This document shows, one piece after another, positions 1 to 34,896 of a stretch of 64,000 nt of DNA. The position numbers and the translations under genes are program-made. Position 1 is the first letter of the stretch. Each line of letters opens with the position of its first letter. A model generated the notes under the pieces. That model was not told the DNA's origin. It searched no databases and saw nothing but the letters and a program-made list of their open reading frames with translations. Source of the stretch: Poseidonia sp. (lineage in GTDB: Archaea; Thermoplasmatota; Poseidoniia; Poseidoniales; Poseidoniaceae); assembly GCA_049600935.1 (NCBI GenBank), contig JBMYQB010000001.1, positions 14,095-78,094 of the forward strand, given 5' to 3'.

Positions 1-1872
1 TTTGCTCGGTTCGCCGACGTACACGACCAAACGGGAACGGTCTCTTATCGTGCTGTTCTCAGCGGTTCAGGTGTTGAACTTGAACACAGTGAACTTCGCT
101 TCAACATCACCATTGCCGACGTGCAGGCAGGCTCGAAAGTAGGGTTGTCGCTTCCAACCGGTGAAGTTGCCGTCGATTTCGTCGGCCTCGATGATGGAGG
201 CTTGTTGTTCACCACCGTGGACGGTGAACTTCACGCACGGACCATCACCTCAACGCTTGCCATGGTGGGCGGTGTGGTCCTTGAGGAAAATTGGGGCGGT
301 GAACTGGCCGTCTATCACCGAGATGACGGTCTCGTTCAGGTCGCATGGAGCCGACGCTCGCTCAGTGTTGAGGGCTACATCCTCACGGACATTGCGATGA
401 CGTCCATTTCCGCTGCGGGCAAAACCACGCCGAAGCACTATCACATGCCAGCACTCAAACTCTCAGAGGGGTCCTACTACGGCTTCTCATTTGACCAATA
501 TGACGGAACGATGGTTCTTGCAGGTTATCACCGCGACCTCTCAACCAGTGGCTCCTGGCAAGACATCACCTCACTCTTTGTCATCTCGTCTACTTCACCC
601 GACCGTGGCAATTCATGGACCAGCCCCGTCACCGTGCTGTCCGACATCGACATACGTCCCGGTGATGTTCAACCTCTGGCCGTGGGGCTCGGTGAAGAAT
701 ACCTCCATCTACTGTATCAGGAATACAGGGATGACGTAACTGGCATCGAGCGAGTTGGCCTGATGTATACGCACGGGTCGCCCACGTCCTCGTCGTGGAG
801 TTTCCAGTATTCTGTGGGTGATGACGCTCACGAACCGGCGATTGAAGTTCTCGTTGAAGATGAAGAAGACCGTTTGATTGCGACGTGGATTGAAGGTGAA
901 GGAAAAGTTGCAAACGTCGTTGTTGCCAACACCAACTCACTGTGGAGCGGTGATGCGGTTCAACGGACCCTCGCACCGGGCGTTTCCACCCTCGGTTTTG
1001 CCCTACGTGAGGATGGCGTCTTCCTCTATCATGACGAAATTAACGTCTACGGACCCGTTCATCGAATGGGCCTCATCGCTGATGAGGACGGTTTGCCGCT
1101 GGCCGGCATGTCCAACATGATCGACGATGGCTATCTGTTTGGCATCGGCGTGATGGAAGACGACACCGTGATTTGTTCCATAACACCGGCCGGTTCCCTC
1201 AGTTTGAGCAAGGTAGCCTCGCTCAAAGGCTCAAACGCTCCCGTTGATTCACCAAGCCTTCTCGAGACCTTGCTCGACTATCTTCCTGGCGGCTCGGACG
1301 AAGTGAAATACCGTATTCTCGGCGTCAGCCTGGGCATTCTGGTGCTTTTCCTCGGCGTCGTTGTCGTCATGGTCCGTCGTTCACGAAACGAAGTTGAGGA
1401 ACTCCTCGAGGAATTGGGCGAGGACGCTGACACCGTTGAATTGATGATCACTCCCGAGCACGATGCAGGCCCGTTGGTCTCCATCGATGAGGACGAGGAA
1501 CTCACCGTTGAAGAATCACAGCTCACGGCCGTGATGGACGATGAAGATGAGAGTCTTGCAGCAGAACTCGAGCGGAAGTTAGAGGAAGGGGAAGGCAACG
1601 CTCGTCTTGAGCGCCGAATGAAGCGGAAGCAACAGCGAGAGATGGCGGAAATTTTGCAACAAGGGCTGCCGCCGCTACCAACTCCAGAACTCCCTGTGCC
1701 TGCCGTGCTTCCCCCGCTTGACGGAACCCTACCGCTTCCTGCTCCCGCTCTGCCGTTGCCCGACCTGAAACGTGAAGTCAACTGTCCGTCATGCCAGGCC
1801 AAATTTGGGGTAAAAGACTTGATGCTCAAGCGCGTGAAGTGCCCTGTTTGCGACCAGACTTTCGACCTGTGA
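1..1872 (+). CDS. Type I membrane surface protein, 5' end truncated by the window edge (BNR/Asp-box ectodomain, one TM helix, acidic/Pro-rich/zinc-ribbon cytoplasmic tail)
   Basis: The frame of ORF 121..1872 stays open back to nt 1, so the listed GTG start is probably internal. Asp-box SPDRGNSW. TM ILGVSLGILVLFLGVVVVMV followed by RRSR. C-terminal CPSC-x15-CPVC. Confidence 0.6.
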   Translation, partial: FARFADVHDQTGTVSYRAVLSGSGVELEHSELRFNITIADVQAGSKVGLSLPTGEVAVDFVGLDDGGLLFTTVDGELHARTITSTLAMVGGVVLEENWGGELAVYHRDDGLVQVAWSRRSLSVEGYILTDIAMTSISAAGKTTPKHYHMPALKLSEGSYYGFSFDQYDGTMVLAGYHRDLSTSGSWQDITSLFVISSTSPDRGNSWTSPVTVLSDIDIRPGDVQPLAVGLGEEYLHLLYQEYRDDVTGIERVGLMYTHGSPTSSSWSFQYSVGDDAHEPAIEVLVEDEEDRLIATWIEGEGKVANVVVANTNSLWSGDAVQRTLAPGVSTLGFALREDGVFLYHDEINVYGPVHRMGLIADEDGLPLAGMSNMIDDGYLFGIGVMEDDTVICSITPAGSLSLSKVASLKGSNAPVDSPSLLETLLDYLPGGSDEVKYRILGVSLGILVLFLGVVVVMVRRSRNEVEELLEELGEDADTVELMITPEHDAGPLVSIDEDEELTVEESQLTAVMDDEDESLAAELERKLEEGEGNARLERRMKRKQQREMAEILQQGLPPLPTPELPVPAVLPPLDGTLPLPAPALPLPDLKREVNCPSCQAKFGVKDLMLKRVKCPVCDQTFDL

Positions 1873-5091: not shown

Positions 5092-5664
5092 TCAAAGAAG
5101 GGGGGTTAATCCCAGTTCGTGTTTGTGCATGTCAACAACAACGTTTTGTCCGGGGATCATCAACAATTTGTCCTCTGCATCCAAGGAAAACACACTGACC
5201 CTCGCTTGGTCAGCCATGTGCTTGATGTCCCGCCGACAAGCCATTTGGTGGCTTTCCATGTGAACGAGCGAACGTAGGTCAACGATGGCGGTATCGCCTT
5301 GCATGACGCGTTCCAACATGTCCCTCGTGGGAATGCGCTTCATGACGTCCGGTGCGATATAACGCAGGGCTTTGTTGGGATGAGGTGCTCGCCGTTCAAC
5401 CGGAACACCGAGGTCGTGAAAGGCCTCGCCGTCGGGGGTCAGTGGGCCGTTCCAGCCCAATGGAGGTGTCCGTAGTCCACTCACGTCTGGTTGGAGACGG
5501 GCTGGAGGAACGGTTGATTGCGTCGCAGGTTCCGGTTGAAGCTCAGGTTCAGGCGATGGTGACAACGATACGGGTCGCTGTTCGGAGGGGCTTGGTTGGG
5601 GGCGGGGGTCGGGTGTTCCACCTTCCGGGTCGGGCAGGCCGAAAAAATTCCACAAACTTCCCAT
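5092..5664 (-). CDS. sepF: Archaeal SepF-like cell division protein
   Basis: N-terminal amphipathic MGSLWNFFGL, then a long Pro-rich linker. The C-terminal core (YIAPDVMKRIPTRDMLERVMQGDTAIVDLRSL...VSVFSLDAEDKLLMIPGQNVVVD) has the beta-alpha-beta-alpha-beta pattern of SepF/DUF552. Confidence 0.6.
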   Translation of the reverse strand: MGSLWNFFGLPDPEGGTPDPRPQPSPSEQRPVSLSPSPEPELQPEPATQSTVPPARLQPDVSGLRTPPLGWNGPLTPDGEAFHDLGVPVERRAPHPNKALRYIAPDVMKRIPTRDMLERVMQGDTAIVDLRSLVHMESHQMACRRDIKHMADQARVSVFSLDAEDKLLMIPGQNVVVDMHKHELGLTPLL

Positions 5665-5673
5665 GCTGCTTCC

Positions 5674-8600
5674 TCAGAAGTCCAAATCGTCAAGCAACGA
5701 TTGCAACTCTGCTGAGGCAGGTGTTGGTGGAGTTTGTGAAACTATGGGTTGTACAGGCGCTGGAGCAGGTGGATTGGCAGCCAACCATTGCTCGCCGTAG
5801 TAATTCCACTGCTCCATCGTCCATCCCTCTGGAAGCCCAGTTGCTGGAATCGGGGGCCCCGTGTTGACCGCCTGTGCCGTTTCCATCGGAGCAACAGCAA
5901 CCGTTGCTGAAGGGTCAGCTTGGACGGCTTGCGCAGGTGCCGCTGGTTGCGCTGCAGGGAGCGGTGCCATCGTCTTGGCGGTTGCGTATTGACTCTGGTC
6001 AAACATGCTGTAGTCTTCGGCTGACGTGGCTCCTTGCCGGGTGAAGAGGAGGAAGATGACCAGGCCGATGATGATGATGCCGAGGAGACCGATGATGACC
6101 GCCGTCGTGGTGCCAACCGTGCTGGTGATGCTTTCGAGGATTCCTTCTGCAGGGGCCTCGGCCACCAGAACGATGATCTCCGCTTGCGTGGATTCACCAT
6201 CGTCGTCCGTCACGGTGAGGGTAAAGGTCCACGTTCCGGCCGGAAGATCCTCCACCGTCCAAGTCGGACCTGTGAAATCGATATCGCCAGTCTTTTGTCC
6301 GTCAAGGTCGGTGTCCAGGTGAGAACTGTCCCACGCATAGACAAGGTTCTCTTTGTCCCCAGCGGTCTCCACTGAATTCGTACCCGAAAGGGTAAGGTTG
6401 TCGCCTTCGGTCAAACCGTCAAGTACTGAGATTTCGGAGATGACTGCAGTGGGCGGGAGGTTCAACACGCTCACGTTCATGCTCTGTTGGGCGATAGCAC
6501 CGTCGTCGTCGGTTACGGTGACCGTGATCATTCGCACGCCTCGAGTGTCCCATGAGGGGGCAACGCTGAGCCCGCTGAGTTCGCAGTCGTTGTCGTTAAC
6601 ACCGTCGCCGTTGCTGTCAAGAGCGGCGTCAAGGTCCCAACACACCTCGAGCGAGGCAAGGTCCGAGGCGGTGTCCGAGGCCACAACGGTCAAGTTCAAC
6701 ACGTCGTTTTCAAACACCGGTGTGTTTCCGGGAAGTCCAGTGACGGTTGGTGGAACGTTGTGAATCATCACCATCGCTTGTTGAACCTCTGACGAAGCAC
6801 CATCAGCGTCGATGGCTCGAACCTGAACGGTGTGCATCCCTGATGTGTTCCACGATACAGCTTCGGATGAGGCAATACCGATGCTGGAAATGGTCCAGTT
6901 TTCATCTTCCAACGAAGGGTGCCATTCGATGATGACCGTGCCTTCGTCGTTGGCGGTATCGCTTGCGGTGGCCCGCAGAAGCGCTACTTCGTCCTCGTTC
7001 AAGTGCCAGGTTCCGTTTTCGTCCGGCATGACCTCTTCCCCGCCCTTAAACAAGGACGGGGCCGAAAGCGTCGGTGCGACGTTCAGCACCATCACTTCAC
7101 TGGTCAAGGTGGTGGTGGCTCCATCGTCGTCTGTAGCGACGGCGGTGATGTTCATCGGTCCTTCAAACATCGGCGTGAACGTGCACCTTGGCTGCGTGAG
7201 GCCCTCATCACATTCAAGACCGGGCCAAGAGATTGAGACTTGTTGGCCAGTGGGCGAGGAGGTGTCAATGTCCTCAATGTCCACGGCCTCGAGGGTGATG
7301 GAGGATTCCACTTCAACCGAGGCAGGATGCGTCAAATTGAACGTCGGCGCTCGATTCAACACCACCACGTCGACCACCATCTCGTCCGTATCCAATTCTT
7401 CATCGACGACGAGAACCTTCACGCTCCATGACCCGCTGTTTGACCAGTTCCACTGCGTCCAGCAGTCAGGTGCCTCGATGACATCGATGAGGCCTGCTCG
7501 CGACTCGATCTCAAACCGACAGTCAACATCTCCTCCGTCAATATCAAAACTCTGAGTGGCGTTCAGCGTGACGTTTTCGAACGTGTATTTGCCTTCGTCA
7601 ACAACGAGCGATGCGTTGGGGGCACGACCGATGAAGACCGAGATGGACGCATCGTTGTTGCTGCGGTTGGCATCGGCCGTCACGTTTTGGTCGGGATCGA
7701 CCGTGAAGGTGAGTTGTGCTGTTCCAATTTGCATGTCGGCCGGCACCGACCAGTCGACCAGGATGCGTTCCTCTGCATAGGGTGCGATGGATGGCAGAGG
7801 GCTCCTCGAAACCGTACCATCGGGCGTTTCAATCTCCATGAAGGTGGATGGAGCTGACAGGACGCCACGGTTTTGTGCGGGTAGTGAGAAACTCAGGACG
7901 TCACCGGGAAGTGCGTTGTATCCAATGGAGGCGCCCAGCGTTGACGTGTCGCCGTTGCGTGTTCGCTCCACGATGACGGAACTCGCTTGTGCCACCAAAT
8001 CAATACCAACCACGCTCAAATCTTGCACGATGGTGGTGGCACCAACGACATCGCCAACGGGGTCGTACACCACCACACCGTTGCTGGTGTAGTCATCGCT
8101 TGCCGGTGTATCGTCTACTTCGTCCGAGACGTTGAGCGAAACTTGGGCTTGGCCGTTGTTATCCGTTGTTGGATTGATGATGGTGTCGGCGATTTCGTAT
8201 CGGAGTTGGAGGTTGGTGTTCTTGATGGGGATGCTCGGCGAACCTGCCACGCTGTATTCAATGGAAAGTTGTTCGACGGCGTCGGGTAAGGTGGCCGTGG
8301 TGGCGGTGCTCACGTGGATTTGTGTGTTCCTGCCACCGGGCGAGGAAGATGAAATCACGCTGTTTGAGTCAGCAGGGTCGTAGGTTTTGAGCAGCCAATC
8401 AATGCTGAATCCTGCGGGATTCACGATACGATTCCAAACGCTTCCTCGGACAGCAGGACAATACCAGTTGAACCCGAGGTTCACGCCCGTAGCGTTCCAT
8501 TCTGAGATTTTGTATGAATCATCGCAGCCCGTGTATTGGGGTGCATCGCCATCTTCGCTCGGGGCTTCGTTTTTCACGACTTGCCACGAATTGTTCTCGT

Positions 8601-9267
8601 CTTCTTGGGCGTCAAACTCTGACGGGTCGAAGTAGTCGGATGTGCCGCTCACCTCCGTGGTGGCTTCGAATTCCATGTACCACTGGTCGCCGTTGCGAAG
8701 TGGGAAATCATGGCGTTCCTTGGCCGGTGAATAGGTGTTGTCGAAGGTGACGATACCAAGCGTCTGCTCGAGGAATCCGAGATTGAACGGACGGAATCGG
8801 ACATCCAACGTGAAATCACTGGTTACCGTAGCGAGGTCTCGGGCTCGAAGAATGTCAATCCCGTCGTAATCGATGTTGAGACGTCCGGTGACGCCTTCCA
8901 AGGTGGCCCCGCTGTTGCCCGAGGTGAAACTCCCGCTGATCTCAATTTCATAAGCAAGAATCGTATCACCGTTGTCGTCGGTTTCATAGAAAATGTCGGT
9001 GACTTCGTTGACCGTGTCGCCCGTAAGCGTGTTGAGCGATGCTGAGACATTGGCTTGGGCAAGAAGTTGAGCGACATCGAATTTGGTCTCGTACACCCAC
9101 TTGTCGCCGACCCGATAGGTTGGCACATCAACGGCGCCGCTGGCGCTTTGCGAACGATGCTCTACGGCGTCTTGCTGCTGAAGGACGGTGGACTCAACCA
9201 CGCCGAGTCCCGTGGACAATACGAAGAGCGCGACGAGAAAACCGGCTTGCAAGGCTCGTCCCAACAT
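5674..9267 (-). CDS. Giant surface protein (signal peptide, N-terminal domain shared with its upstream paralog, multiple PKD-like repeats, C-terminal TM, cytoplasmic tail)
   Basis: Signal-like MLGRALQAGFLVALFVLSTGLG. Repeated PKD hallmarks (VTVTDDDGA, LTVTDDDGE, AVATDDDGA ... VLN.PP). Many N-x-S/T sequons. TM AVIIGLLGIIIIGLVIFLLF. Tail motif GLPEGWTMEQWNYYGEQWL. Confidence 0.85.
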   Translation of the reverse strand: MLGRALQAGFLVALFVLSTGLGVVESTVLQQQDAVEHRSQSASGAVDVPTYRVGDKWVYETKFDVAQLLAQANVSASLNTLTGDTVNEVTDIFYETDDNGDTILAYEIEISGSFTSGNSGATLEGVTGRLNIDYDGIDILRARDLATVTSDFTLDVRFRPFNLGFLEQTLGIVTFDNTYSPAKERHDFPLRNGDQWYMEFEATTEVSGTSDYFDPSEFDAQEDENNSWQVVKNEAPSEDGDAPQYTGCDDSYKISEWNATGVNLGFNWYCPAVRGSVWNRIVNPAGFSIDWLLKTYDPADSNSVISSSSPGGRNTQIHVSTATTATLPDAVEQLSIEYSVAGSPSIPIKNTNLQLRYEIADTIINPTTDNNGQAQVSLNVSDEVDDTPASDDYTSNGVVVYDPVGDVVGATTIVQDLSVVGIDLVAQASSVIVERTRNGDTSTLGASIGYNALPGDVLSFSLPAQNRGVLSAPSTFMEIETPDGTVSRSPLPSIAPYAEERILVDWSVPADMQIGTAQLTFTVDPDQNVTADANRSNNDASISVFIGRAPNASLVVDEGKYTFENVTLNATQSFDIDGGDVDCRFEIESRAGLIDVIEAPDCWTQWNWSNSGSWSVKVLVVDEELDTDEMVVDVVVLNRAPTFNLTHPASVEVESSITLEAVDIEDIDTSSPTGQQVSISWPGLECDEGLTQPRCTFTPMFEGPMNITAVATDDDGATTTLTSEVMVLNVAPTLSAPSLFKGGEEVMPDENGTWHLNEDEVALLRATASDTANDEGTVIIEWHPSLEDENWTISSIGIASSEAVSWNTSGMHTVQVRAIDADGASSEVQQAMVMIHNVPPTVTGLPGNTPVFENDVLNLTVVASDTASDLASLEVCWDLDAALDSNGDGVNDNDCELSGLSVAPSWDTRGVRMITVTVTDDDGAIAQQSMNVSVLNLPPTAVISEISVLDGLTEGDNLTLSGTNSVETAGDKENLVYAWDSSHLDTDLDGQKTGDIDFTGPTWTVEDLPAGTWTFTLTVTDDDGESTQAEIIVLVAEAPAEGILESITSTVGTTTAVIIGLLGIIIIGLVIFLLFTRQGATSAEDYSMFDQSQYATAKTMAPLPAAQPAAPAQAVQADPSATVAVAPMETAQAVNTGPPIPATGLPEGWTMEQWNYYGEQWLAANPPAPAPVQPIVSQTPPTPASAELQSLLDDLDF

Positions 9268-9318
9268 GGTTACAGGTGGGCCTTCTGATACAAAAGAGAA
9301 TGTCCTCCTTGCGGAGCA

Positions 9319-12300
9319 TCAGGTTTGAGAGTCAAGCCACTGTTGTCCGTAATGCTCCCATTGTTCCATGGTCCATCCCTCTGGTAATCCTGTGGGTGGG
9401 AGCGGTGGAGCGCTTGGGGATGATTGAGCAGCGCCGGGGGCGTTTTGCAGGGCTTGCTGGAAGAGATAATCCGGCGGGGGGCCTTCCGGACGTTTTTGCC
9501 GCAATCGTTCTTCCCGGTCCGTGAACAGGTCGCCAGCCAACGCATCAGAGACTTCATCCCACACATTGCTTGGTGTTTCCACCCGACGTCGGCGCCTCGA
9601 AAACAGCACCACGAGGAGCAACACGAAGACGAGGAGGCTGAGTTGAATCACAGGGTTGGCTTCTTCACCCGCCAAGGATGCTCCGAGATTTTCCAGCGGT
9701 GTTCGGTCTGCGGGAAGAACGGCAAAGGTGATCACTTTCGTTCCCGGCCGCTCGGGGTCTTCGTCCCAAGCCATCACCTTGACGGATTGCAAACCGTCTT
9801 GTCTGAAGGTGTAGGTGACCGATTTACCGATGAGGTCAGCATCGTTGTCCAGTATGCCGTCTTCGTTGCTGTCGTCGTTCACGTCAACGTCCCATGCGAT
9901 GGTCAAATCGTTGAGGTCGTTAAGTGCGTCGAGGGTGCTGCTTGCATCCAACAAACACGGCTGATAGGCCATGCATGAAAACGGAGCGGTGCGAACGATG
10001 GGCGGGGTGTTGAGCACCAACACTTCAAGCACTTCGCTCGAATGAGCACCGTCGTCATCCGTCACGTGGTAGACCAGCTTGTGGGTGCCGCTTCGGTTCC
10101 ATGACACGGTCAAGTTGTCGCCAATGACATCGCAATCATCGTCTGCGCTTCCAAAATCATCGGAGTCCATGCTCGGGTCAATGTCCCAGCAGCGCACCAG
10201 CGTGCTCACATCCGAGGCGGTGTCGGTGGATTGCCCTGAAACACTGATGCTTTGGCCTTCTGCAACGGGGAGAACAGGGGGGATGGGTTCGATGATTGGT
10301 GCAACGTTTTGCACGCTGACCCATCGCTCCTCAATACCGCTCGAAGCTCCTTCGGAGTCCGTCACTTCAAGCCGCATTTTGTGCAGGCCTGCTTCGAGCC
10401 AGACCATTTCGAACTCAGATGTTCGCCCGTCAAACACGCGCACGAGCGAGGGTTGGGCATCGTCAGGCCACCACGTGTGGGTCAAGTCTTCAATGTCGTC
10501 CACCGAATCTTGGGCTTGGCCTTTGACGGTGACGATCTGATCTTCCTCGACATGCCATGTGTCTTGGGCATCCATGATGATGGGTCCTTCGGCGCTCACC
10601 ATCTGAACGTTGATGCTGTGCGGCCGAATGTTCGTGAATTTGACGTCAAAAGTTGCGGTGGAAACGGCTCCGTCATCGTCGGTTCCCACAGCTGTGAAGG
10701 TTTTCCAACCCTCTACGTTTGACGTGGTGGTGCAGGTTCGGGTGTAGTAGCCTTCCTTGCAGTTGGCACCCGGCCAGTAAATGTCGACCACACCCGGCCA
10801 TACCTTTTCGGAATCGGAATCGTTGGCGTAGGCGTAAAGGGTGATCGGATATTCCACCTTCGCCTCTGTTCGTTGGCTTCGCACCTCAATCTTCGGGTCT
10901 CTGTTTTGCACGGTCACGTTCAGAATCATGACCGACTCATCACGCTCTTCGTCCTCAACGGTGATTTCAACAGGGTAGACGCCGTCATCGATCCACGTGT
11001 AATTCAAGACGCAGGACGGTGAAACGATGCGTTCGTAGTCCCATGTTCTGGTGCCGTCATCAAAGGGCACGTAAAATTCACAGGAAACATTCCCGCCGTC
11101 TTCGTCATAACTTTCACTGGCGTTGATGAAAATGGTTTCTTGGGTCATGCCGATGGGTTCTGGCGCCACGGGCGTGGGCAATCGTCCAACAAAGAGTTCA
11201 ATGGTTCCGATGTTGTTCTGGAAGTTGGCATCGGCGGTGTTCAAGCGGGCGGTATCGGCTTCCCATTGGATTTGGAGCGAACCGATACCGGCGTCGTCAG
11301 GAACGACCCATTCTTGCAACATTTTGTGGGCCTGATATGTTTGTAACGCAGGCAATTCCTCGGTCAGGGTCACACCGTCAGGCGTCGTCAATCGTGCATC
11401 CGTGACGGTGGAGGTCGTGATGCCTCGATTGGTAAAGGCGACTTCAATGGAAAGTTTGTCGCCGGGGAGCACATTGAAGCCGGAGAGGGCGTTGAGTTGA
11501 GTCAGCGTACAAACATCCCCAATGCACCGTTCTCGCAGGATGACGGCCGCCCCTTCGTCAGCGAAGACATCCAAGCCAACGAGGTACTCATCAAGCGTGA
11601 CCGTTGCTGCACCGACCTTGTTTCCTGCCTTGGCCACAAGTCCGTGACTGGCGTAATCGAGTTGTGTCGCTGACGAGTCGAAGGCGTCACCAATGTCGAC
11701 CATGGACCAAGCACTTCCGTTTGTCGCCGTGGTCAGGGTTGTAACGAAACCCTCAACCTCGTGATGCAATTCGAGTTGCAAACCGGCCGTGTTGGAGAAA
11801 CACGAAGCGGAGGCGTTCACCCACACCTGCATTGGCGTGTTCAATGCGGTGATGGACCGTTCAGGGACCACGTCGAGGCAGTCCGAACGCGTGCCGGGAT
11901 TGGTGTATGGTTCCACCCCGGTCGAGCCAACAGGGTCGTACCGCTTGAGCTTGAAATCAATGACCAACCCGATGTCGTCAGCCGTGTGAAGCCAGGCATA
12001 GTTTCGCACCTCAGGGCAATACCAGCGGTAGCCTTCTGATACGCCATCGCTGTTGAACGAGGTCATCTCGTACGATTCGTTGCAGCCGCCATAATCGATG
12101 GTTTGACCGACGTTATTCGTCGGTTTGCCGACGTTGGTGACCACCCATGTGGTGGTGTTTGTATCCGTCTCGGGTGGAGGGAAGGGCGTGATGTAATCGC
12201 TTTGACCCGACCACTGCGAAGAGGAGGTGGTTGTGGTGGTCCAACGTTCGTCCATGCGGAGCGGGAAGTCGTAATTCTCGTTGACAGGAGAATAGGTGGT

Positions 12301-12849
12301 GGTGATGGTGATGTCGCCGAGAATTTGCTCAAGGAAGGAGATGCCGCTGGGAACGAAGCGTATGTACAGGTCCAGTTCACTTCGAATGGGTGAAAGGTCG
12401 CTCACCCGCAGGTACTCGGTTTGGGTGAACTGAATGTAGACATTGCCGGTGTAGCCTTCGAGGGAGACCCCGGATTTGTCGAAATTCGCTGAGGTTCGCA
12501 GCGTGTAGGCCAGGACCGACATGTTGTCCACGTTCTGAGTGGTGATGCCGGTGACTTCTGAGGTGGTATCGCCCTGAATTTCACCGACCGTGGCGTCAAC
12601 GCCCGTGTCCGTCACAAGGACGGTGGGGTCGAAGGTTCCAGCGTAGATCCAACGGTCGCCGATGCGCCATGTCGGGACATCAGAAACACCCGGGTCGCCG
12701 GCGATGGCATGTTGAACAGAGGCGTCGGGGAGGTGCTCGTGGTGTGAGAGGGGCACCATGTTCAGAAGGAGCAGCAGCACCAAGGCCAACGGGACGGTGC
12801 GGCCCAAGCGTACCTCTCCCATGGTATGGCCACGGGCACGGGAGGACAT
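9319..12849 (-). CDS. Giant surface protein, paralog of 5674..9267
   Basis: Same architecture and an alignable N-terminal domain (VPTWRIGDRWIY vs VPTYRVGDKWVY; FLEQILG vs FLEQTLG). PKD repeats (HVTDDDGA, AVGTDDDGA). TM then tail GLPEGWTMEQWEHYGQQWL. Start set at the ATG at 12849 (MSSRARGHTMGEVRLGRTVPLALVLLLLL) with AGGAG upstream, because the longer ORF to 13014 would overlap tbp. Confidence 0.8.
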   Translation of the reverse strand: MSSRARGHTMGEVRLGRTVPLALVLLLLLNMVPLSHHEHLPDASVQHAIAGDPGVSDVPTWRIGDRWIYAGTFDPTVLVTDTGVDATVGEIQGDTTSEVTGITTQNVDNMSVLAYTLRTSANFDKSGVSLEGYTGNVYIQFTQTEYLRVSDLSPIRSELDLYIRFVPSGISFLEQILGDITITTTYSPVNENYDFPLRMDERWTTTTTSSSQWSGQSDYITPFPPPETDTNTTTWVVTNVGKPTNNVGQTIDYGGCNESYEMTSFNSDGVSEGYRWYCPEVRNYAWLHTADDIGLVIDFKLKRYDPVGSTGVEPYTNPGTRSDCLDVVPERSITALNTPMQVWVNASASCFSNTAGLQLELHHEVEGFVTTLTTATNGSAWSMVDIGDAFDSSATQLDYASHGLVAKAGNKVGAATVTLDEYLVGLDVFADEGAAVILRERCIGDVCTLTQLNALSGFNVLPGDKLSIEVAFTNRGITTSTVTDARLTTPDGVTLTEELPALQTYQAHKMLQEWVVPDDAGIGSLQIQWEADTARLNTADANFQNNIGTIELFVGRLPTPVAPEPIGMTQETIFINASESYDEDGGNVSCEFYVPFDDGTRTWDYERIVSPSCVLNYTWIDDGVYPVEITVEDEERDESVMILNVTVQNRDPKIEVRSQRTEAKVEYPITLYAYANDSDSEKVWPGVVDIYWPGANCKEGYYTRTCTTTSNVEGWKTFTAVGTDDDGAVSTATFDVKFTNIRPHSINVQMVSAEGPIIMDAQDTWHVEEDQIVTVKGQAQDSVDDIEDLTHTWWPDDAQPSLVRVFDGRTSEFEMVWLEAGLHKMRLEVTDSEGASSGIEERWVSVQNVAPIIEPIPPVLPVAEGQSISVSGQSTDTASDVSTLVRCWDIDPSMDSDDFGSADDDCDVIGDNLTVSWNRSGTHKLVYHVTDDDGAHSSEVLEVLVLNTPPIVRTAPFSCMAYQPCLLDASSTLDALNDLNDLTIAWDVDVNDDSNEDGILDNDADLIGKSVTYTFRQDGLQSVKVMAWDEDPERPGTKVITFAVLPADRTPLENLGASLAGEEANPVIQLSLLVFVLLLVVLFSRRRRRVETPSNVWDEVSDALAGDLFTDREERLRQKRPEGPPPDYLFQQALQNAPGAAQSSPSAPPLPPTGLPEGWTMEQWEHYGQQWLDSQT

Positions 12850-12886
12850 CAAGACTTCTCCTCTAGCCCGTTGGCTGAGGGTGTGC

Positions 12887-13501
12887 TCAAAGCAGGTCAG
12901 CCAGTTCGTCCTTGATGATTTCAACCGCTTCGAGAATCTCGTCTTTGTGACGGGCGCCGGTGATGACCATCTTTCCGGAACCGAAGATGAGACAGACCAC
13001 CTTGGGGTCGTCAAGTCGGTAGATCAGACCGGGGAACTGTTCTGGCTCGTACTCCACCTTGTCAAAGGGCAAGTGGAAGGTCAGGTGGTTGAGGTTGAGT
13101 TTGCGCGGAACGCCTGCTTGTGGCTCGCCGGTGAACTTGTCAACACCGTCGTAGTCTTCTGGGTAGTGAAGGGCGTAGGTGGCGACCATGTTCTGGACTT
13201 CGATGGTGACGTCCTTGAGGTCCCATGTTTCGATACCAGCAGCACGCAAATCCTTGATCATGCGGTCAATACCGGTGTGGATGTTATCCTCGTCCTTACC
13301 ACCAGTGCAGACGGCACGGCCGGAGCGGAACATAAGAATGGCAAGTTTTGGTTCGGTGACACGGTAAACGACACCGGGGAATTGCTCGGGCTCGTACTCA
13401 CAGTTGAGTTGGATGGCAATGTCGGGGAGGTCAAGTTCTTCGGCAACACGGGTGCTGGCGACAACGTTCACAACAGTTAGGCGTTCTTCATCGGTGGTCA
13501 T
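12887..13501 (-). CDS. tbp: TATA-box binding protein
   Basis: Two direct repeats, each with EYEPEQFPG(V/L)(V/I)YR and F.SG....TG. Start at the ATG at 13501 (MTTDEERLTVVNVVAS), 12 nt inside the listed TTG ORF start. Confidence 0.93.
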   Translation of the reverse strand: MTTDEERLTVVNVVASTRVAEELDLPDIAIQLNCEYEPEQFPGVVYRVTEPKLAILMFRSGRAVCTGGKDEDNIHTGIDRMIKDLRAAGIETWDLKDVTIEVQNMVATYALHYPEDYDGVDKFTGEPQAGVPRKLNLNHLTFHLPFDKVEYEPEQFPGLIYRLDDPKVVCLIFGSGKMVITGARHKDEILEAVEIIKDELADLL

Positions 13502-13523
13502 ATAAAGGCCCAATGGTCTTTAG

Positions 13524-13540
13524 TATATAAAAGGAATTTC
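13524..13540 (-). promoter_or_regulatory. Archaeal TATA box (TTTTATATA) with a purine-rich BRE-like element upstream, promoter of tbp
   Basis: The minus strand reads ccgAAATTCC-TTTTATATA-ctaaagaccattgggcctttat-ATG. The TATA centre is about 27 nt upstream of the ATG at 13501, which implies a leaderless or near-leaderless mRNA. Confidence 0.7.
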
Positions 13541-13565
13541 GGCACCGGCCATGCTCGCGGGTCGG

Positions 13566-14552
13566 TCAATCTTCATCAACGGCCACGCCTTTGCAACCTA
13601 TTTTCGAAACGAGCGTGCGTCCACCGGCCAACTCGATGGCCTGACTCGTTTCGGTTGGTTGGCGTGTAAGCGCCACCATGCATCCTCCACCGCCTGCTCC
13701 GGTTAACTTCACGCCAAGTGAAGAAGGAGCAGCGGCTTGAATGAGGGTTTCCAGTTCGCTTGACGAGACACCTAAATTTCGCAAAAGCAGGTGGTTCTCG
13801 CTCATTGCATGGCCAACAGCCTCGTAGTCCCCTCGAGTCAAGGCATCAATCCCACGACGAGCAACCGTTCCGATGGCTTCGATTTCCAGCATGCGATGTG
13901 GATCGGCAGCCAAGGCTTTGGCCACCATCGCCACTTGGCGGGATGTAGGAGCGTGGACACCGGTGTTCCCAAGGACGAGGTACACATCGTCGCTGGGCAC
14001 CGATAAACTGTGAACCTCCCATGTCCGCTCTCCCTCCGGCGTGGTGAGGCGGCGCGTGTAGAGCCAATCACCGAAGGTTTCTCGCACATCAGAGAGCACG
14101 ACGACGCCTCCCTCGACGCTGGTGGAGGCGTCCATCGGCGAAGCTCTTCCGTTTTGTGCGCTCGCCTCGGCAAGGTGTGCCAGTGCGCTCAAGCGGTCCT
14201 TGTCCAGGGGCTTGTCGGTGCCGGAACACCGATGCATTGCAGCGCCAGCCGCAGCGCTCAACGCTGCACTTGAACCCAAACCTGAGGCATTGGGGATGTC
14301 GCCGGTGATGTGAATCGCCATGGCACCGTCATCACTCATCAAGGCCTCTTTGAGCATCGTGATGTGCGGGTGCTTTCGCTCGTTCAAAGGCCCCCCATCC
14401 ACGCTCCATGACGGCGCAGGCGTCAGCGATACCGAGAGACGTTGCTCGATGGCAACGGCCACAGCAGGTTGGCCGTAGACGACGGCATGCTCGCCGAAGA
14501 GGATGCATTTACCCGGCGCACTCGCCGACACTCGCGACAAGGCTTCATCCAT
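13566..14552 (-). CDS. mvk: Mevalonate kinase
   Basis: APGKCILFGEHAVVYGQPAVAVAI. GHMP kinase motif PNASGLGSSAA. C-terminal KLTGAGGGGCMVAL. Start at the ATG giving MDEALSRVSASAPGK; the longer ORF to 14693 would overlap the divergent neighbour. Confidence 0.9.
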   Translation of the reverse strand: MDEALSRVSASAPGKCILFGEHAVVYGQPAVAVAIEQRLSVSLTPAPSWSVDGGPLNERKHPHITMLKEALMSDDGAMAIHITGDIPNASGLGSSAALSAAAGAAMHRCSGTDKPLDKDRLSALAHLAEASAQNGRASPMDASTSVEGGVVVLSDVRETFGDWLYTRRLTTPEGERTWEVHSLSVPSDDVYLVLGNTGVHAPTSRQVAMVAKALAADPHRMLEIEAIGTVARRGIDALTRGDYEAVGHAMSENHLLLRNLGVSSSELETLIQAAAPSSLGVKLTGAGGGGCMVALTRQPTETSQAIELAGGRTLVSKIGCKGVAVDED

Positions 14553-14684
14553 GAGCAGAACACGGGCTCCGGCTTCATATTCCTTGTTGCGCAGTGAACG
14601 ATTTCGTTGTTCTTTTGACGGTGCATTGAAAGTGCGTCTTGAACTGGGAAGGATAAGCGCCTGCGGGCGACACCGGTGAGGAAC

Positions 14685-16742
14685 ATGGAACATCCCTTGT
14701 TTATGGATTACGGCCCGCTTCCAGGTTGGGTCATTTTGCTGCTCATGTTTGCCGTCTCGGGTGGGTTCTTTGGCTATCAGGTGGTCAAGGCATCTCGCCT
14801 CGTCCTCAAAGGAAAACCTGAGAACCGTTTTGACAACTGGGGCGCACGAATTTCCGAAGTGCTCAGCGGATGGCTAGGACAGAAAAAGGTGCTCAAGGAC
14901 CGGGTGGCCGGTGGCATCCACGTCCTCATGTTCTGGGGTTTCTTGATGCTCTCAACCGACATGTTTGACCTCGCAAGCGGGAACCAATTCTCACAAAAGG
15001 TCCTGCCCGAACTCGTTCGGGGACCTTGGAATTTGATGGTGGAAGTGGGCTACACCATCGCCTTCGTCGGTTGTGTACTGGCCCTTGTTCGCCGTGTGGT
15101 GTTTACACCAGAGAAACTCAAGGGGAAATCGCAACTTGAAGGCAACGTCATTCTCCTTCTCATCATGACCATCACCACCACGTCGTTCGTTGTTGAGGCT
15201 GGTGAGTCAACCGTTTCCTCGACTTGGGAGCCCATCGGTGCGTGGGTGGCGTCAACCCTCGTCCCGTCCACAAGCGTCATCGTCGCTGCCTACTGGGCCC
15301 ACATGCTGGCCATCTGTGTGTTCCTGTTCCTCATTCCGCTGTCCAAGCACATGCACCTGGTCATGGCCTTCCCCAATGTGTTCTTCCACGACCTTCGACC
15401 CATGGCGACCATGGAGCCATTGGCTCGAGGCGAGAACGGAAAAGCAGTCTTGCTCGATGAGTTGGACATCGAATCCTTTGGTGCCGTCAACTACACGGAT
15501 TTTACCTGGCGAGACCTTATTGACGGATGGGCCTGCACGTCGTGCGCTCGCTGTCAAGATGTCTGCCCGGCTTACGCCAGCGGCAAAGCCCTCAACCCGA
15601 TGCAGATCATCCACGACGTCCGCCATTACGCCAACGACCACGCCACCAGCATCTTCGCCGGTGAAACGCCTGAAGAAGACATCATTGCCCGCTTTGGTGA
15701 AGACGCCATTTGGGCGTGCACCACCTGCCACGCCTGCGTTGAGGCATGCCCGATTTACATTGACCACGTCCCCAAACTTACCGACGCTCGCCGCCACCTG
15801 ATGATGGAACGCATGGAGTTCGACGAGAGCGTCGAAGACACGGTCATGCCGCTCATGGCCACCATTGAGAATCTTGAATCGGATTCCAACCCCTACGGCC
15901 TGCCCTCCCACGAGCGTGGCGATTGGGCAGAAGGGCTTGACGTGAAGGTGGCAGAGCCCGCTGAATACATTTACTTCGCTGGCTGCGCTGCCTCGTTTGA
16001 CGAGCGCAACAAGAAGGTCGCAAGGGACACCATCAGCATCATGAAAGAAGCCGGTCTTGACGTCGGTATCCTCGGTATGCAGGAGGGTTGCAGCGGTGAT
16101 GCCGCACGCCGAGCGGGGAACGAATACTTGTTCCAGATGCTTGCCGAAACCAACCTTTCCACCTTTGAGGAAATCGGCGTCAAGAAGATCGTCGCCTCCT
16201 GCCCGCATTGCTTCCACACGCTTGGAAAGGAGTACAAGGACTACGGCGGAGAAGACATCGAGGTCATGCATCATTCGCAACTCATCAACCATCTTCAGGT
16301 CGAGGGCAAACTTCCAGAGCCCAAGCACGACGGAACGGTCACCTACCACGACCCCTGCTATCTCGGGCGAATCGGTGGCGAACTCGACGCTCCACGCGAC
16401 GCCATCGGTGGTGTGGATGTTGAAGCCGAGCGCCACGGACGTGATTCCTTCTGTTGCGGCGCAGGTGGTGCACAAATGTGGATGGAAGAGCACGTTGACG
16501 AAGGCCACGACCGTGTCAACATCATTCGTTCCAAGGAATTGGCAGCGACCGGTGCCGAAACCGTGGCCGTGGGCTGTCCCTTCTGTTCGACCATGGTCAC
16601 CGACGGGTTGAGCGCCATCGGCTCGGAGATGGAAGTCAAGGACGTCGCCGAACTCGTGTGGGAGCAAATCAAGGCCAACGATGCAAAGATCGAAGCGGCC
16701 AAAGCCTCGGCCGAATCCGCCGCTGAACCCGCTGAAGCCTGA
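14685..16742 (+). CDS. Membrane-bound Fe-S oxidoreductase: N-terminal multi-TM His-rich (NarI/HdrE/DsrM-like) domain fused to an HdrD/GlpC-like 2x[4Fe-4S] + CCG-domain module
   Basis: Several N-terminal TM helices with conserved His (GGIHVLMFWGF, YWAHMLAICVF, SKHMHLVMAF). CTSCARCQDVCP and CTTCHACVEACP ferredoxin motifs. CCG-type motifs ASCPHCFHTL and CCGAGG...GCPFCSTM. Confidence 0.8.
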   Translation: MEHPLFMDYGPLPGWVILLLMFAVSGGFFGYQVVKASRLVLKGKPENRFDNWGARISEVLSGWLGQKKVLKDRVAGGIHVLMFWGFLMLSTDMFDLASGNQFSQKVLPELVRGPWNLMVEVGYTIAFVGCVLALVRRVVFTPEKLKGKSQLEGNVILLLIMTITTTSFVVEAGESTVSSTWEPIGAWVASTLVPSTSVIVAAYWAHMLAICVFLFLIPLSKHMHLVMAFPNVFFHDLRPMATMEPLARGENGKAVLLDELDIESFGAVNYTDFTWRDLIDGWACTSCARCQDVCPAYASGKALNPMQIIHDVRHYANDHATSIFAGETPEEDIIARFGEDAIWACTTCHACVEACPIYIDHVPKLTDARRHLMMERMEFDESVEDTVMPLMATIENLESDSNPYGLPSHERGDWAEGLDVKVAEPAEYIYFAGCAASFDERNKKVARDTISIMKEAGLDVGILGMQEGCSGDAARRAGNEYLFQMLAETNLSTFEEIGVKKIVASCPHCFHTLGKEYKDYGGEDIEVMHHSQLINHLQVEGKLPEPKHDGTVTYHDPCYLGRIGGELDAPRDAIGGVDVEAERHGRDSFCCGAGGAQMWMEEHVDEGHDRVNIIRSKELAATGAETVAVGCPFCSTMVTDGLSAIGSEMEVKDVAELVWEQIKANDAKIEAAKASAESAAEPAEA

Positions 16743-34726: not shown

Positions 34727-34896
34727 GGTTCACCGACCGAGGACGCGGTTTTGAACACTACTCCACATTTTGTTCATTTTTGTTCACTCGTCCTTGATTT
34801 TTAGGTGAGGAAAAACACAAGACGGAGCGGATAAATCCAAATTGCGGGAAAATAGAGAGGGGCATCCTTCAAGTCCTTCAATGGGCACCGTAAACC

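What the first reader, a model, noticed from the sequence alone, without database searches (positions are those of the whole stretch)
5674..12849. Tandem giant PKD-repeat paralogs share a short cytoplasmic tail motif maintained at the protein level
The two co-directional genes (51-nt gap) encode about 1,180-1,200-aa type I membrane proteins with an alignable N-terminal domain and PKD repeats. Their cytoplasmic tails are otherwise unalignable by eye but share a 19-aa block:
- GLPEGWTMEQWNYYGEQWL at nt 5782..5838.
- GLPEGWTMEQWEHYGQQWL at nt 9334..9390.

By hand, 16 of 19 residues are identical. Eight of those 16 use different synonymous codons (for example GGG/GGA, CTT/TTA, ACG/ACC, GAG/GAA). 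The identity therefore reflects purifying selection on the peptide rather than recent gene conversion. A conserved Trp-rich peptide on the cytoplasmic side of huge surface proteins suggests a docking site for an intracellular partner, such as the cytoskeleton, division machinery, or a sorting or quality-control factor.
Basis: seen in the sequence. Interest (0 to 1): 0.6.

Follow-up and report, generated by a model that had tools for sequence, protein, structure and literature searches.

The report
Shared cytoplasmic tail module, Poseidoniales
The 19-residue block shared by the two giant surface proteins is the core of an undescribed 26-residue proline/tryptophan module that every sampled Marine Group II (Poseidoniales) genome attaches to the intracellular tails of several unrelated surface proteins, most likely as a common docking handle whose partner is still unknown.

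Summary
It is far beyond chance (shuffled tails give at most 9/19).

The block is not specific to these paralogs. It is the core of a 26-aa module, PP[LVI]PxxGLPxGW[TS]M[ED]QWx[HYW]YGx[QE][WY]L.
- In this MAG it ends 8 large type I membrane proteins. Apart from A/B, their ectodomains are unrelated (for example an S8 subtilase and an Ig-like protein).
- It always lies 37-156 aa after the C-terminal TM helix, on the Lys/Arg-rich (cytoplasmic) side. One metagenomic type II protein carries it N-terminally, also on the inside.
- All sampled Poseidoniales genomes have it (about 110 distinct across three samples). None of 45 sister-order genomes or 159 other Thermoplasmatota genomes does.
- No Pfam, NCBIfam, PDB or paper match was found.
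- AlphaFold2 predicts an extended Pro-rich segment followed by an amphipathic aromatic helix, not a WW fold.

Protein A also ends in a second conserved peptide, LLDDLDF. Nine nt downstream lies a very divergent SepF (fold match only). That peptide, not the Trp block, resembles the FtsZ tail that SepF binds.

Best reading: a tethered docking handle for a shared, unidentified cytoplasmic partner. This is inferred, not shown.

The parts
9319..12849 (-). Gene B: 1176-aa type I surface protein (signal peptide, PKD repeats, one C-terminal TM helix, 92-aa cytoplasmic tail)
   Evidence: ORF; Pfam PKD_4 and PKD; hydropathy scan; 32% identical to A over 1151 aa
9598..9654 (-). B transmembrane helix PVIQLSLLVFVLLLVVLFS, followed by RRRRR
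   Evidence: Hydropathy scan and K/R count; coordinates
9409..9597 (-). B tail linker: 63 aa, low complexity, charged and Pro-rich
9331..9408 (-). B copy of the 26-aa tail module PPLPPTGLPEGWTMEQWEHYGQQWLD.
5674..9267 (-). Gene A: 1197-aa type I surface protein (signal peptide, CARDB, PKD repeats, one C-terminal TM helix, 122-aa cytoplasmic tail)
   Evidence: ORF; Pfam K319L-like_PKD, PKD and CARDB; hydropathy scan
6043..6105 (-). A transmembrane helix TAVIIGLLGIIIIGLVIFLLF
5857..6042 (-). A tail linker: 62 aa, Ala/Pro-rich. Least conserved part of the protein (0.39 mean pairwise identity among orthologs).
5779..5856 (-). A copy of the 26-aa tail module PPIPATGLPEGWTMEQWNYYGEQWLA. Mean pairwise identity among orthologs is 0.87.
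   Evidence: AF2: Pro-rich part extended, helix over MEQWNYYGEQWLAA, pLDDT 84-88.
5701..5778 (-). A-specific extension after the module (ANPPAPAPVQPIVSQTPPTPASAELQ)
   Evidence: Carriers other than A orthologs stop 3-8 aa after the module.
5677..5700 (-). A extreme C-terminal acidic/hydrophobic peptide SLLDDLDF. It is a second conserved tail element (0.95 identity among orthologs). An equivalent peptide is kept in the giant protein upstream of sepF across the order, even where the Trp module is absent.
   Evidence: It resembles the SepF-binding FtsZ peptide NEDQLDDFIDGIF of M. smithii (PMC8178401).
5092..5664 (-). Divergent sepF, 9 nt downstream of A: N-terminal amphipathic helix MGSLWNFFGLP, Pro-rich linker, and C-terminal core (residues 99-190, nt 5095-5370)
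   Evidence: - No Pfam hit.
- Profile's top PDB hit is 3ZIE, SepF-like, E=0.058.
- AF2 core pLDDT 94-96.
- Foldseek's top 8 hits are all SepF, target-normalised TM-score (TMt) 0.68-0.78.
- Single copy in 31/31 genomes.
- Always directly downstream of the A-type gene.

Best explanation
Shown by sequence analysis:
- The 19-aa block is the core of a portable 26-aa module, PP[LVI]PxxGLPxGW[TS]M[ED]QWx[HYW]YGx[QE][WY]L.
- In Poseidoniales (Marine Group II archaea) the module caps the cytoplasmic tails of a defined subset of single-pass surface proteins.
- In this genome the carriers are the A/B PKD giants, an S8 subtilase, an Ig-like protein, a beta-propeller-like protein and three of unknown fold.
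- The anatomy is constant: signal peptide, large ectodomain, one TM helix, a K/R cluster, a 37-156-aa disordered acidic/Pro/Ala linker, the module, then 3-8 residues and the stop.
- The module was already on several client families in the order's common ancestor. Its few variable positions follow client type rather than genome.
- It has been held almost invariant since then.

Inferred:
- The module is a tethered docking handle. A short Pro-rich segment plus an aromatic-faced helix is held on a flexible leash under the membrane.
- One conserved cytoplasmic reader would bind it, connecting this set of surface enzymes and adhesins to a common intracellular structure or machine.

Protein A carries a second, separable element, the terminal peptide LLDDLDF. 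Its gene sits 9 nt upstream of a divergent sepF, with a Shine-Dalgarno-like GAGGA overlapping its stop codon, which suggests translational coupling. That peptide, not the Trp module, is the candidate link to the SepF/FtsZ division machinery.
For: - Real and non-random: 16/19 against at most 9/19 in shuffled tails.
- Protein-level selection: 8/12 synonymous differences in the block against 52% in the ectodomain. Ortholog identity is 0.87 in the module and 0.39 in the linker.
- Portable: a six-frame HMM scan of the MAG finds 8 strong copies (E 2e-16 to 1.5e-14) at the ends of 626-1808-aa ORFs. Only A and B have related ectodomains. Pfam finds an S8 subtilase, an Ig-like domain, a WD40-like domain and PKD/CARDB.
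- Cytoplasmic: K+R in the 15-aa flanks is 4 outside and 31 inside. All 47 sampled carriers in relatives have a TM helix 37-156 aa upstream. Of the 150 best database clusters, 120 end 10 aa or less after the module, and 61 of the 69 with at least 100 upstream residues show the TM helix. A complete 237-aa type II protein carries the module at residues 4-30, before a K/R cluster and its TM helix.
- Lineage-wide and lineage-specific: 31/31 relatives; 106/106 order genomes against 0/45 sister-order genomes; 42/42 against 0/159 other Thermoplasmatota. There are 642 clusters among 1.84 billion proteins. Record titles read Poseidoniales, Poseidonia or MG-II.
- Near-invariance: P4, G7, P9, G11, W12, Q16, W17 and G21 are 150/150.
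- Variable positions follow client type across families, for example DQWRWYGHEWL in the beta-propeller-like (C18-type) client.
- Structure: AF2 gives pLDDT 84-88 over the module, with a helix from M to A and an aromatic face M/W/Y-G/W/L.
- Undescribed: no Pfam or NCBIfam hit even at E<=10, no Foldseek PDB hit, no paper.
Against: - No partner has been identified, and there is no experimental or co-folding evidence.
- Docking is inferred only from anatomy and conservation.
- Strong conservation would also follow from self-association of tails, or from recognition by a protease or chaperone.
- Topology rests on my own hydropathy scan and the positive-inside rule, not on experiment.
- The invariance figures come from the 150 best-scoring clusters, which are biased towards the consensus.
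- The AF2 model is of a 66-aa fragment (mean pLDDT 71). I could not inspect its coordinates, so I cannot say whether the Pro-rich arm packs on the helix.
Confidence: 0.55

Rival explanations
1. Clustering motif. The modules bind each other, homotypically or between clients. This would gather the marked surface proteins into patches or a lattice under the membrane without a separate reader protein.
For: - Many-to-many compatibility would explain near-invariance across all clients.
- The aromatic-faced helix could zip with another copy.
- There are several clients per cell.
Against: - Genus g6 keeps the module on a single client, where heterotypic clustering has no purpose.
- Invariant Pro and Gly residues and Q16 look more like a specific interface than a simple zipper.
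- No direct test was possible.
Confidence: 0.13
2. Turnover or quality-control tag. The module is recognised by a cytoplasmic or membrane AAA+ protease, unfoldase or chaperone. This would control the amount of complete surface proteins or extract them. It is a special case of docking with a different consequence.
For: - The module lies at or near the end of the polypeptide, so it marks completed chains.
- It sits on a long disordered leash of the kind unfoldases use as initiation sites.
- The clients are very large, costly proteins.
Against: - The module also works N-terminally in a type II protein.
- In A orthologs it is followed by 17-113 further residues, so a free terminus is not needed.
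- Nothing links it to a protease gene.
Confidence: 0.15
3. Membrane-interface anchor. The Trp-rich helix folds back and lies in the cytoplasmic leaflet. It would stabilise or orient the single-pass anchor, or sense curvature.
For: - Trp and Tyr favour the lipid interface.
- The helix is amphipathic.
- The leash is long enough to reach back to the membrane.
Against: - The hydrophobic moment is only 0.20-0.34 and mean hydrophobicity is about 0.
- The module is net acidic and has no flanking basic residues. This is unlike SepF or MinD membrane-targeting helices.
- Lipid binding would not require invariant P4, G7, P9, G11, Q16 and G21.
Confidence: 0.07
4. Sortase-type C-terminal sorting signal (analogous to PGF-CTERM, LPXTG or PEP-CTERM). 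It would be cleaved off during anchoring.
For: It is a recurrent C-terminal element on many surface proteins of one lineage.
Against: - The order of elements is wrong. Here it is TM, basic cluster, long linker, motif. Sorting signals are motif, TM, basic tail.
- The motif is on the cytoplasmic side, where such transpeptidases do not act.
- No exosortase or archaeosortase (PF09721) was found in the MAG, although the control for this search was weak.
Confidence: 0.02
5. Chance similarity, or recent gene conversion between the tandem paralogs, with no function.
For: The two genes are adjacent and paralogous.
Against: - Shuffled tails reach at most 9/19.
- Synonymous sites are diverged.
- The same module is on unrelated proteins on other contigs and in every sampled genome of the order.
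Confidence: 0.01

Closest known systems
FtsZ C-terminal linker plus conserved C-terminal peptide, which docks on SepF, FtsA or ZipA (M. smithii SepF-FtsZ CTD, PDB 7AL2; PMC8178401)
   Same: - Same design: a short, highly conserved peptide on a long, poorly conserved, disordered leash, read by a partner at the membrane.
- A's terminal LLDDLDF resembles the LDDFI core of NEDQLDDFIDGIF.
- A's gene is directly followed by sepF.
   Different: - The Trp module has no sequence likeness to any FtsZ CTD.
- It is attached to integral surface proteins, not to a cytoskeletal polymer.
- It occurs on 8 clients per genome here, most of them unlinked to sepF.
- Its partner is unknown.
- Poseidoniales FtsZ1 and FtsZ2 end in ..IEFVN and ..FQRFD, without the archaeal GID motif.
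C-terminal NWETF pentapeptide of high-abundance bacterial chemoreceptors (Tar/Tsr), which tethers CheR and CheB (from general knowledge)
   Same: An aromatic-containing peptide at the end of a flexible cytoplasmic tail of a membrane protein, used only to recruit a soluble partner.
   Different: - It is 26 residues with a predicted helix, not 5 residues.
- It is on many unrelated ectoproteins, not one receptor family.
- It is archaeal and lineage-specific.
WW domain (Pfam PF00397)
   Same: - A local resemblance of GLPxGW to the LPxGW start of WW domains.
- Trp-rich, and adjacent to a PPLP string.
   Different: - No HMM hit at E<=10.
- Only about 26 residues.
- W-W spacings are 5, 7 and 12, not 20-22.
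- AF2 predicts a helix, not a three-stranded sheet.
Prokaryotic C-terminal sorting tags (PGF-CTERM/archaeosortase, LPXTG/sortase, PEP-CTERM/exosortase)
   Same: A lineage-wide C-terminal tag shared by otherwise unrelated surface proteins.
   Different: - The order of elements is reversed (TM, basic cluster, linker, motif).
- The tag is cytoplasmic.
- No cognate sortase was found.
Cytoplasmic tail motifs of eukaryotic type I adhesion receptors (integrin beta NPxY-talin, cadherin-catenin) (from general knowledge)
   Same: Single-pass surface proteins with large ectodomains whose short tails carry conserved peptides that couple them to intracellular structures.
   Different: There is no homology. 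This is a functional analogy only, and no archaeal cortical partner is known.

Membership tests
WW domain (PF00397) | Match to the family HMM | tested here: not met
   No Pfam family at E<=10 for either tail or for the isolated module
WW domain (PF00397) | Domain of about 35-40 aa forming a three-stranded antiparallel sheet, with two signature Trp 20-22 residues apart | tested here: not met
   The module is 26 aa. Trp spacings are 5, 7 and 12. AF2 predicts an alpha-helix over MEQW..WLAA.
Sortase-type C-terminal sorting signal (PGF-CTERM, LPXTG, PEP-CTERM) | Tripartite order: signature motif, then hydrophobic helix, then basic residues at the extreme C-terminus | tested here: not met
   All 10 carriers here and 47 in relatives have TM, then K/R, then a 37-156-aa linker, then the module
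Sortase-type C-terminal sorting signal (PGF-CTERM, LPXTG, PEP-CTERM) | Cognate exosortase or archaeosortase encoded in the genome | tested here: inconclusive
   PF09721 gives no hit in the 85%-complete MAG. The control search detected only M. jannaschii, so sensitivity for archaeosortases is doubtful.
Tethered docking peptide (FtsZ-CTP or NWETF type; a functional class, not a homology family) | Conserved short element at the end of a poorly conserved, compositionally biased, disordered linker | tested here: met
   Module 0.87 against linker 0.39 identity. Linkers are 8-19% Pro and 9-20% Asp+Glu among the eight strong carriers. AF2 pLDDT is low outside the module.
Tethered docking peptide (FtsZ-CTP or NWETF type; a functional class, not a homology family) | Demonstrated binding to a defined partner | not testable with these tools
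PP-fold or Trp-cage-like mini-protein (polyproline arm packed on an aromatic helix) | Pro-rich extended segment packed against the aromatic face of the following helix | tested here: inconclusive
   AF2 gives an extended PPxPxxGLPxGW followed by a helix at pLDDT 84-88. Coordinates could not be inspected, and Foldseek found no PDB match.
SepF (PF04472) - for the neighbouring ORF 5092-5664 | Match to the family HMM | tested here: not met
   No hit for the protein or anywhere in the genome at E<=10
SepF (PF04472) - for the neighbouring ORF 5092-5664 | SepF alpha/beta core fold | tested here: met
   AF2 core pLDDT 94-96. Foldseek's top 8 hits are SepF from A. fulgidus, P. furiosus, B. subtilis and M. 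smithii, target-normalised TM-score (TMt) 0.68-0.78, probability 1.00. The profile's top PDB hit is 3ZIE, E=0.058.
SepF (PF04472) - for the neighbouring ORF 5092-5664 | N-terminal amphipathic membrane-targeting helix plus flexible linker; one copy per FtsZ-containing archaeal genome | tested here: met
   MGSLWNFFGLP is conserved, and AF2 predicts a short helix over residues 5-8 within it. There is a single copy in 31/31 genomes. FtsZ1 and FtsZ2 are present.
PKD-repeat surface proteins (for A and B) | PKD-type Ig-like repeats above the Pfam threshold | tested here: met
   A: K319L-like_PKD 37.3 bits, PKD 29.4 bits, CARDB 27.6 bits. B: PKD_4 44.3 bits, PKD 35.8 bits.

The most novel reading that the evidence does not exclude
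Poseidoniales may use a modular 'tail code' that wires their membrane-anchored surface proteome to the cell interior.
- The Trp module would plug a core set of clients into one cortical reader. This set includes the S8 subtilase, the Ig-like protein, the unknown-fold C2-type protein with an N-terminal CGHC motif, and the A/B giants.
- A second code would be LDDLF-type acidic end peptides. A's LLDDLDF is one example, and similar peptides end or repeat in several other membrane proteins. These would mimic the FtsZ C-terminal peptide and bind the FtsZ groove of the adjacent, highly divergent SepF.
- Together these would physically couple the envelope to the division ring.
Probability: 0.2. Interest if true: 0.85.

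Novelty: new variant of a known kind. Interest (0 to 1): 0.6.

Why it matters
Marine Group II archaea are among the most abundant planktonic archaea, and they are uncultured. Their large surface proteases and adhesins are thought to underlie their role in degrading high-molecular-weight organic matter. An almost invariant, order-specific cytoplasmic module shared by these otherwise unrelated surface proteins implies an unrecognised intracellular component that organises, positions or regulates the surface proteome. No comparable shared cytoplasmic tail module turned up for any archaeon in the libraries and papers I searched. The module is a 26-residue peptide, so it is a ready bait for pull-downs or in-silico interaction screens. 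It is also a sharp sequence marker for Poseidoniales surface proteins and for mis-binned contigs. The adjacent A-SepF pairing gives a concrete, testable hypothesis for how the envelope and the FtsZ/SepF divisome might be coupled.

Tried and rejected
- Pfam and NCBIfam on whole proteins, tails and the isolated module at E<=10: nothing for the tail.
- Foldseek of the tail model against the PDB: no hits.
- WW-domain reading: rejected on the HMM, Trp spacing and predicted helix.
- Sortase-signal reading: rejected on the order of elements.
- Gene conversion or chance: rejected.
- Membrane-anchor helix: disfavoured by a low hydrophobic moment and net acidic charge.
- Search for soluble carriers: the 8 database hits with more than 100 upstream residues and no TM helix are fragments of long-linker clients, some starting inside the TM helix. 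The one apparent exception among relatives (L042) is an N-masked gap.
- Viral carriers: none confirmed in IMG/VR.
- Pfam SepF on ORF 5092-5664 and on the whole genome: negative. The identification rests on fold.
- FtsZ tails of Poseidoniales (..IEFVN..FQRFD) are only loosely like A's LLDDLDF, so 'FtsZ-tail mimic' stays a hypothesis.
- Two bacterial-labelled MAG contigs carrying the module are mis-binned or probably mis-binned Poseidoniales DNA.

Full report
**Observation.** The window encodes two co-directional minus-strand genes. A is 5674..9267 (1197 aa). The longest ORF for B starts at a TTG at 13014 and would overlap the upstream TBP gene. The A-B gap is 51 nt.
- Both proteins hit PKD-type Pfam families, and A also hits CARDB.
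- They are clear paralogs: 32% identity over 1151 aa, E=3e-173.
- Each has an N-terminal hydrophobic signal and a single C-terminal TM helix.
- The two 19-aa blocks are at the stated coordinates, with 16/19 residues identical, 8 of those 16 using different codons, and 41/57 nt identical.
- Shuffling the two tails 1000 times gives a best 19-mer match of 6.4 on average and never more than 9.
- Among identical residues that have synonymous choices, 8/12 differ in the block against 52% across the ectodomain. The block is as old as the duplication at silent sites, so the identity is kept by selection on the peptide and not by recent gene conversion.

**What the block belongs to.** A regular-expression scan and then a small-HMM scan of all six frames of the whole 1.87-Mb MAG show that the block is not a property of this gene pair.
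- Eight ORFs of 626-1808 aa, on six contigs, end in PP[LVI]PxxGLPxGW[TS]xEQWxxYGxx[WY]L (E 2e-16 to 1.5e-14). Two more have degenerate relatives of it. The next best hit has E about 1.
- All ten have the same anatomy: an N-terminal hydrophobic signal (the contig-edge ORF on C31 lacks its 5' end), a huge ectodomain, one TM helix, a K/R cluster, an 84-156-aa tail rich in Pro/Ala or Asp/Glu, and then the module 3-8 residues before the stop.
- A is the exception at the end. It continues for 34 residues after the module.
- Apart from A/B, the ectodomains share no detectable similarity. Pfam finds an S8 subtilase with CARDB, an Ig-like domain and a WD40-like propeller. In the two degenerate-tail proteins it finds PA14+LamG and LTD+phospholipase D.

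**Which side of the membrane.**
- Over the ten carriers, the 15 residues before the TM helix hold 4 K/R and the 15 after it hold 31. Together with the N-terminal signals, this places the tails in the cytoplasm by the positive-inside rule.
- All 47 carriers I extracted from related genomes have a TM helix 37-156 aa upstream. The single apparent exception is a reading frame interrupted by masked bases.
- In the 150 best of 642 matching clusters from a 1.84-billion-protein library, 120 end within 10 residues of the module, and 28 have 11-70 further residues, mostly A orthologs.
- Of the 69 with at least 100 upstream residues, 61 show the TM helix. The other 8 are fragments of long-linker clients.
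- One cluster (P0150) is a complete 237-aa gene found on four marine contigs beside archaeal housekeeping genes. It carries the module at residues 4-30, followed by a linker, K/R, a TM helix and an ectodomain.
- P0150 is the mirror-image (type II) arrangement. It keeps the module on the inside and shows that a free C-terminus is not required.

**Distribution.**
- The module is present in 31/31 nearest genomes (three families, ten genera).
- It is in all 106 genomes of the order in a class-wide sample and in none of 45 genomes of the sister-order families.
- It is in 42/42 order genomes against 0/159 other genomes of the phylum. The three samples overlap and cover about 110 distinct order genomes.
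- Record titles of 80 matching loci read Candidatus Poseidoniales, Poseidonia, Poseidoniaceae, Thalassarchaeaceae or MG-II. They include the original MG-II assembly CM001443.
- Two contigs labelled Verrucomicrobiales and Yoonia are mis-binned or probably so. One is the A-SepF-Maf locus at 76-84% protein identity to this window. The other is a 3.3-kb contig whose ORF is only 24.5% identical to one client type here.
- The window's own family has 5-11 copies per genome (mostly 7-11), and the second large family has 1-8.
- In the small genomes with three copies, the clients are orthologs of the unknown-fold C2-type protein, the Ig-like protein and the S8 subtilase. The genus with one copy keeps it on the C2-type protein.
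- The few variable positions follow client type across families, for example DQWRWYGHEWL in the propeller-like client and YGHE[WY]LK in the subtilase. The module was therefore already on several clients in the common ancestor and has been inherited vertically under very strong constraint.
- In the 150 best clusters, P4, G7, P9, G11, W12, Q16, W17 and G21 are invariant.
- Among A orthologs the module (0.87) and the last eight residues (0.95) are conservation islands. The ectodomain scores 0.64 and the linker 0.39.

**Structure and known families.**
- Neither Pfam nor NCBIfam matches the tails, even at E<=10.
- AlphaFold2 was run on A's last 66 residues with a 36-row alignment. It gives pLDDT 84-88 over the module, an extended PPxPxxGLPxGW segment, and a helix over MEQWNYYGEQWLAA. 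The rest has low confidence except a weaker helix over the terminal peptide.
- Foldseek finds nothing in the PDB.
- On a helical wheel, M, W, Y/G, W and L form one face. The hydrophobic moment is only 0.20-0.34, and the module is acidic with no flanking basic residues. It is a poor candidate for a lipid-binding helix.
- It fails the WW-domain definition on the HMM, the Trp spacing and the predicted secondary structure.
- It fails the sortase-signal definition because the element order is TM, basic cluster, linker, motif, and because the motif is cytoplasmic. PF09721 is also absent from the MAG, although the control for that search was weak.
- Full-text searches for the motif strings, for Poseidoniales with 'cytoplasmic tail', and for MGII surface proteins returned nothing relevant.

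**The neighbour and A's second motif.**
- ORF 5092..5664 starts 9 nt after A's stop, and a GAGGA overlaps the stop codon.
- It has no Pfam hit, and PF04472 finds nothing in the genome.
- A 13-row profile has the A. fulgidus SepF-like protein 3ZIE as its top PDB hit, E=0.058.
- Its AF2 core has pLDDT 94-96.
- The eight best Foldseek hits are all SepF, with target-normalised TM-scores (TMt) of 0.68-0.78 and probability 1.00.
- It has a conserved N-terminal amphipathic M..LW.FFGLP segment and a Pro-rich linker. It is single-copy in 31/31 genomes.
- I accept it as a very divergent SepF.
- Across the order the string mevalonate kinase, TBP, (B), A-type giant, sepF is conserved.
- A orthologs end in an acidic/hydrophobic peptide: LLDDLDF, DLDLDDLF, PWEFDL, ALDFDL, EDIEALFDD or MIDLDEL. 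This holds even in genera where this ortholog lacks the Trp module.
- The M. smithii FtsZ peptide crystallised in SepF is NEDQLDDFIDGIF, with LDDFI in the conserved groove (PMC8178401).
- The local FtsZ1 and FtsZ2 end in conserved ..R.IEFVN and ..GFQRFD, without the archaeal GID motif.
- A's terminal peptide is therefore a reasonable but untested SepF ligand.
- The Trp module has no such link, because most of its clients are elsewhere in the genome.

**How it most likely works.**
- Shown: a portable, cytoplasmic, order-specific, nearly invariant 26-aa element on a flexible leash, on a defined subset of single-pass surface proteins. That subset is 8 of roughly 59 candidate type I proteins of at least 500 aa in a crude census.
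- Inferred: it is a docking handle read by one conserved cytoplasmic partner (confidence about 0.55).
- Rivals: a turnover or quality-control tag (0.15), tail-tail clustering (0.13), a membrane-interface helix (0.07), a sortase-type signal (0.02), and chance or gene conversion (0.01).
- The closest known design is the FtsZ linker plus C-terminal peptide, or the chemoreceptor NWETF tether. This is an analogy of mechanism, not membership of a family.

**Novelty and caveats.**
- I found no database family or paper that describes the module. I rate it a new variant of a known kind (tethered docking peptides). It is unusual in being shared across unrelated surface proteins of a whole archaeal order.
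- Several earlier AI notes of this scan reached the same reading in other Poseidoniales genomes.
- No partner is known, and topology and fold are predictions.

Noticed in passing
window 5092-5664 (-): A very divergent SepF lies 9 nt downstream of gene A. It is invisible to Pfam PF04472 and identified by fold only. It has a conserved N-terminal M..LW.FFGLP helix and an extra conserved FHDLG...W...RY..PD segment before the core.
   Followed up: yes
window 5677-5700 (-): A's extreme C-terminal peptide SLLDDLDF is the most conserved stretch of the protein (0.95 identity). A-type orthologs across the order keep an equivalent acidic/hydrophobic end even where they lack the Trp module. It resembles the SepF-binding FtsZ peptide core LDDFI.
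   Followed up: partly
window 34894-39987 (+) and other contigs of the genome (C2:35333-44491, C7:28205-32533, C25:7439-11683, C62:2064-6194, C26:17373-22930, C4:11566-16020): A different Trp-rich tail class ends at least eight other giant type I proteins. It looks like a WW/DUF2510-type hairpin, for example ..GSDGYWWYHDKATNEWWYKDANGEIV.
   Followed up: partly
genome contigs C30:654-5969, C27:7423-12303, C15:28930-34890, C14:8694-15056: Further recurrent tail classes appear on surface proteins. One is GWTxEQ/GWTxDQ doublets, which look like degenerate relatives of the module, on PA14-LamG and LTD-PLD proteins. Others are zinc-ribbon tails (C1:10774-15966, whose 3' end is window 1-1872; C63; C16) and AQGY/YAQQY tails (C18:27373-34083, C22:23382-26882).
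   Followed up: no
genome contigs C19:14982-23327, C14:34813-39756, C4:52219-54867, C15:25519-26667, C12:24107-25000: LDDLF-type acidic end peptides recur on tails of other membrane proteins: ..FLDDLL, ..ELDLDFD, ..IDDLEF, LDDLDLSELDDLF, and DLPDLDDLF twice. By a crude criterion such ends are enriched in the type I set: 4/59 against 16/1783, odds ratio 8, p=0.003.
   Followed up: partly
L097-L099 (marine metagenome contigs; protein P0150): A 237-aa type II membrane protein carries the module at its N-terminus (residues 4-30), before K/R and its TM helix. The module is therefore orientation-independent but always cytoplasmic.
   Followed up: yes
genome contigs C40:11784-13310 and C84:2608-3531; loci L070-L088: Poseidoniales FtsZ1 and FtsZ2 have conserved C-termini, ..R.IEFVN and ..GFQRFD. 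They lack the GID motif reported as nearly invariant in archaeal FtsZ tails.
   Followed up: partly
L106 (NZEQ01000049.1, labelled Verrucomicrobiales) and L148 (CAXRJJ010000014.1, labelled Yoonia): Two contigs in bacterial MAGs carry the module. L106 is the A-SepF-Maf locus at 76-84% protein identity to this window, so it is mis-binned Poseidonia DNA. L148 is a 3.3-kb contig whose ORF is only 24.5% identical to one client type here, so it is probably mis-binned too. The module works as a marker for mis-binning.
   Followed up: yes
genome contig C2:9810-13310 (-): This is the most widely retained client of the module, and the only one in one genus. It has no Pfam domain but shows a thioredoxin-like CGHC motif near its N-terminus.
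   Followed up: no
window 5092-14693 (-): The gene string mevalonate kinase, TBP, B, A, sepF is co-directional, with gaps of 37 nt (TBP-B), 51 nt (B-A) and 9 nt (A-sepF). It is conserved across the order. B is missing in most genera of the second large family.
   Followed up: partly
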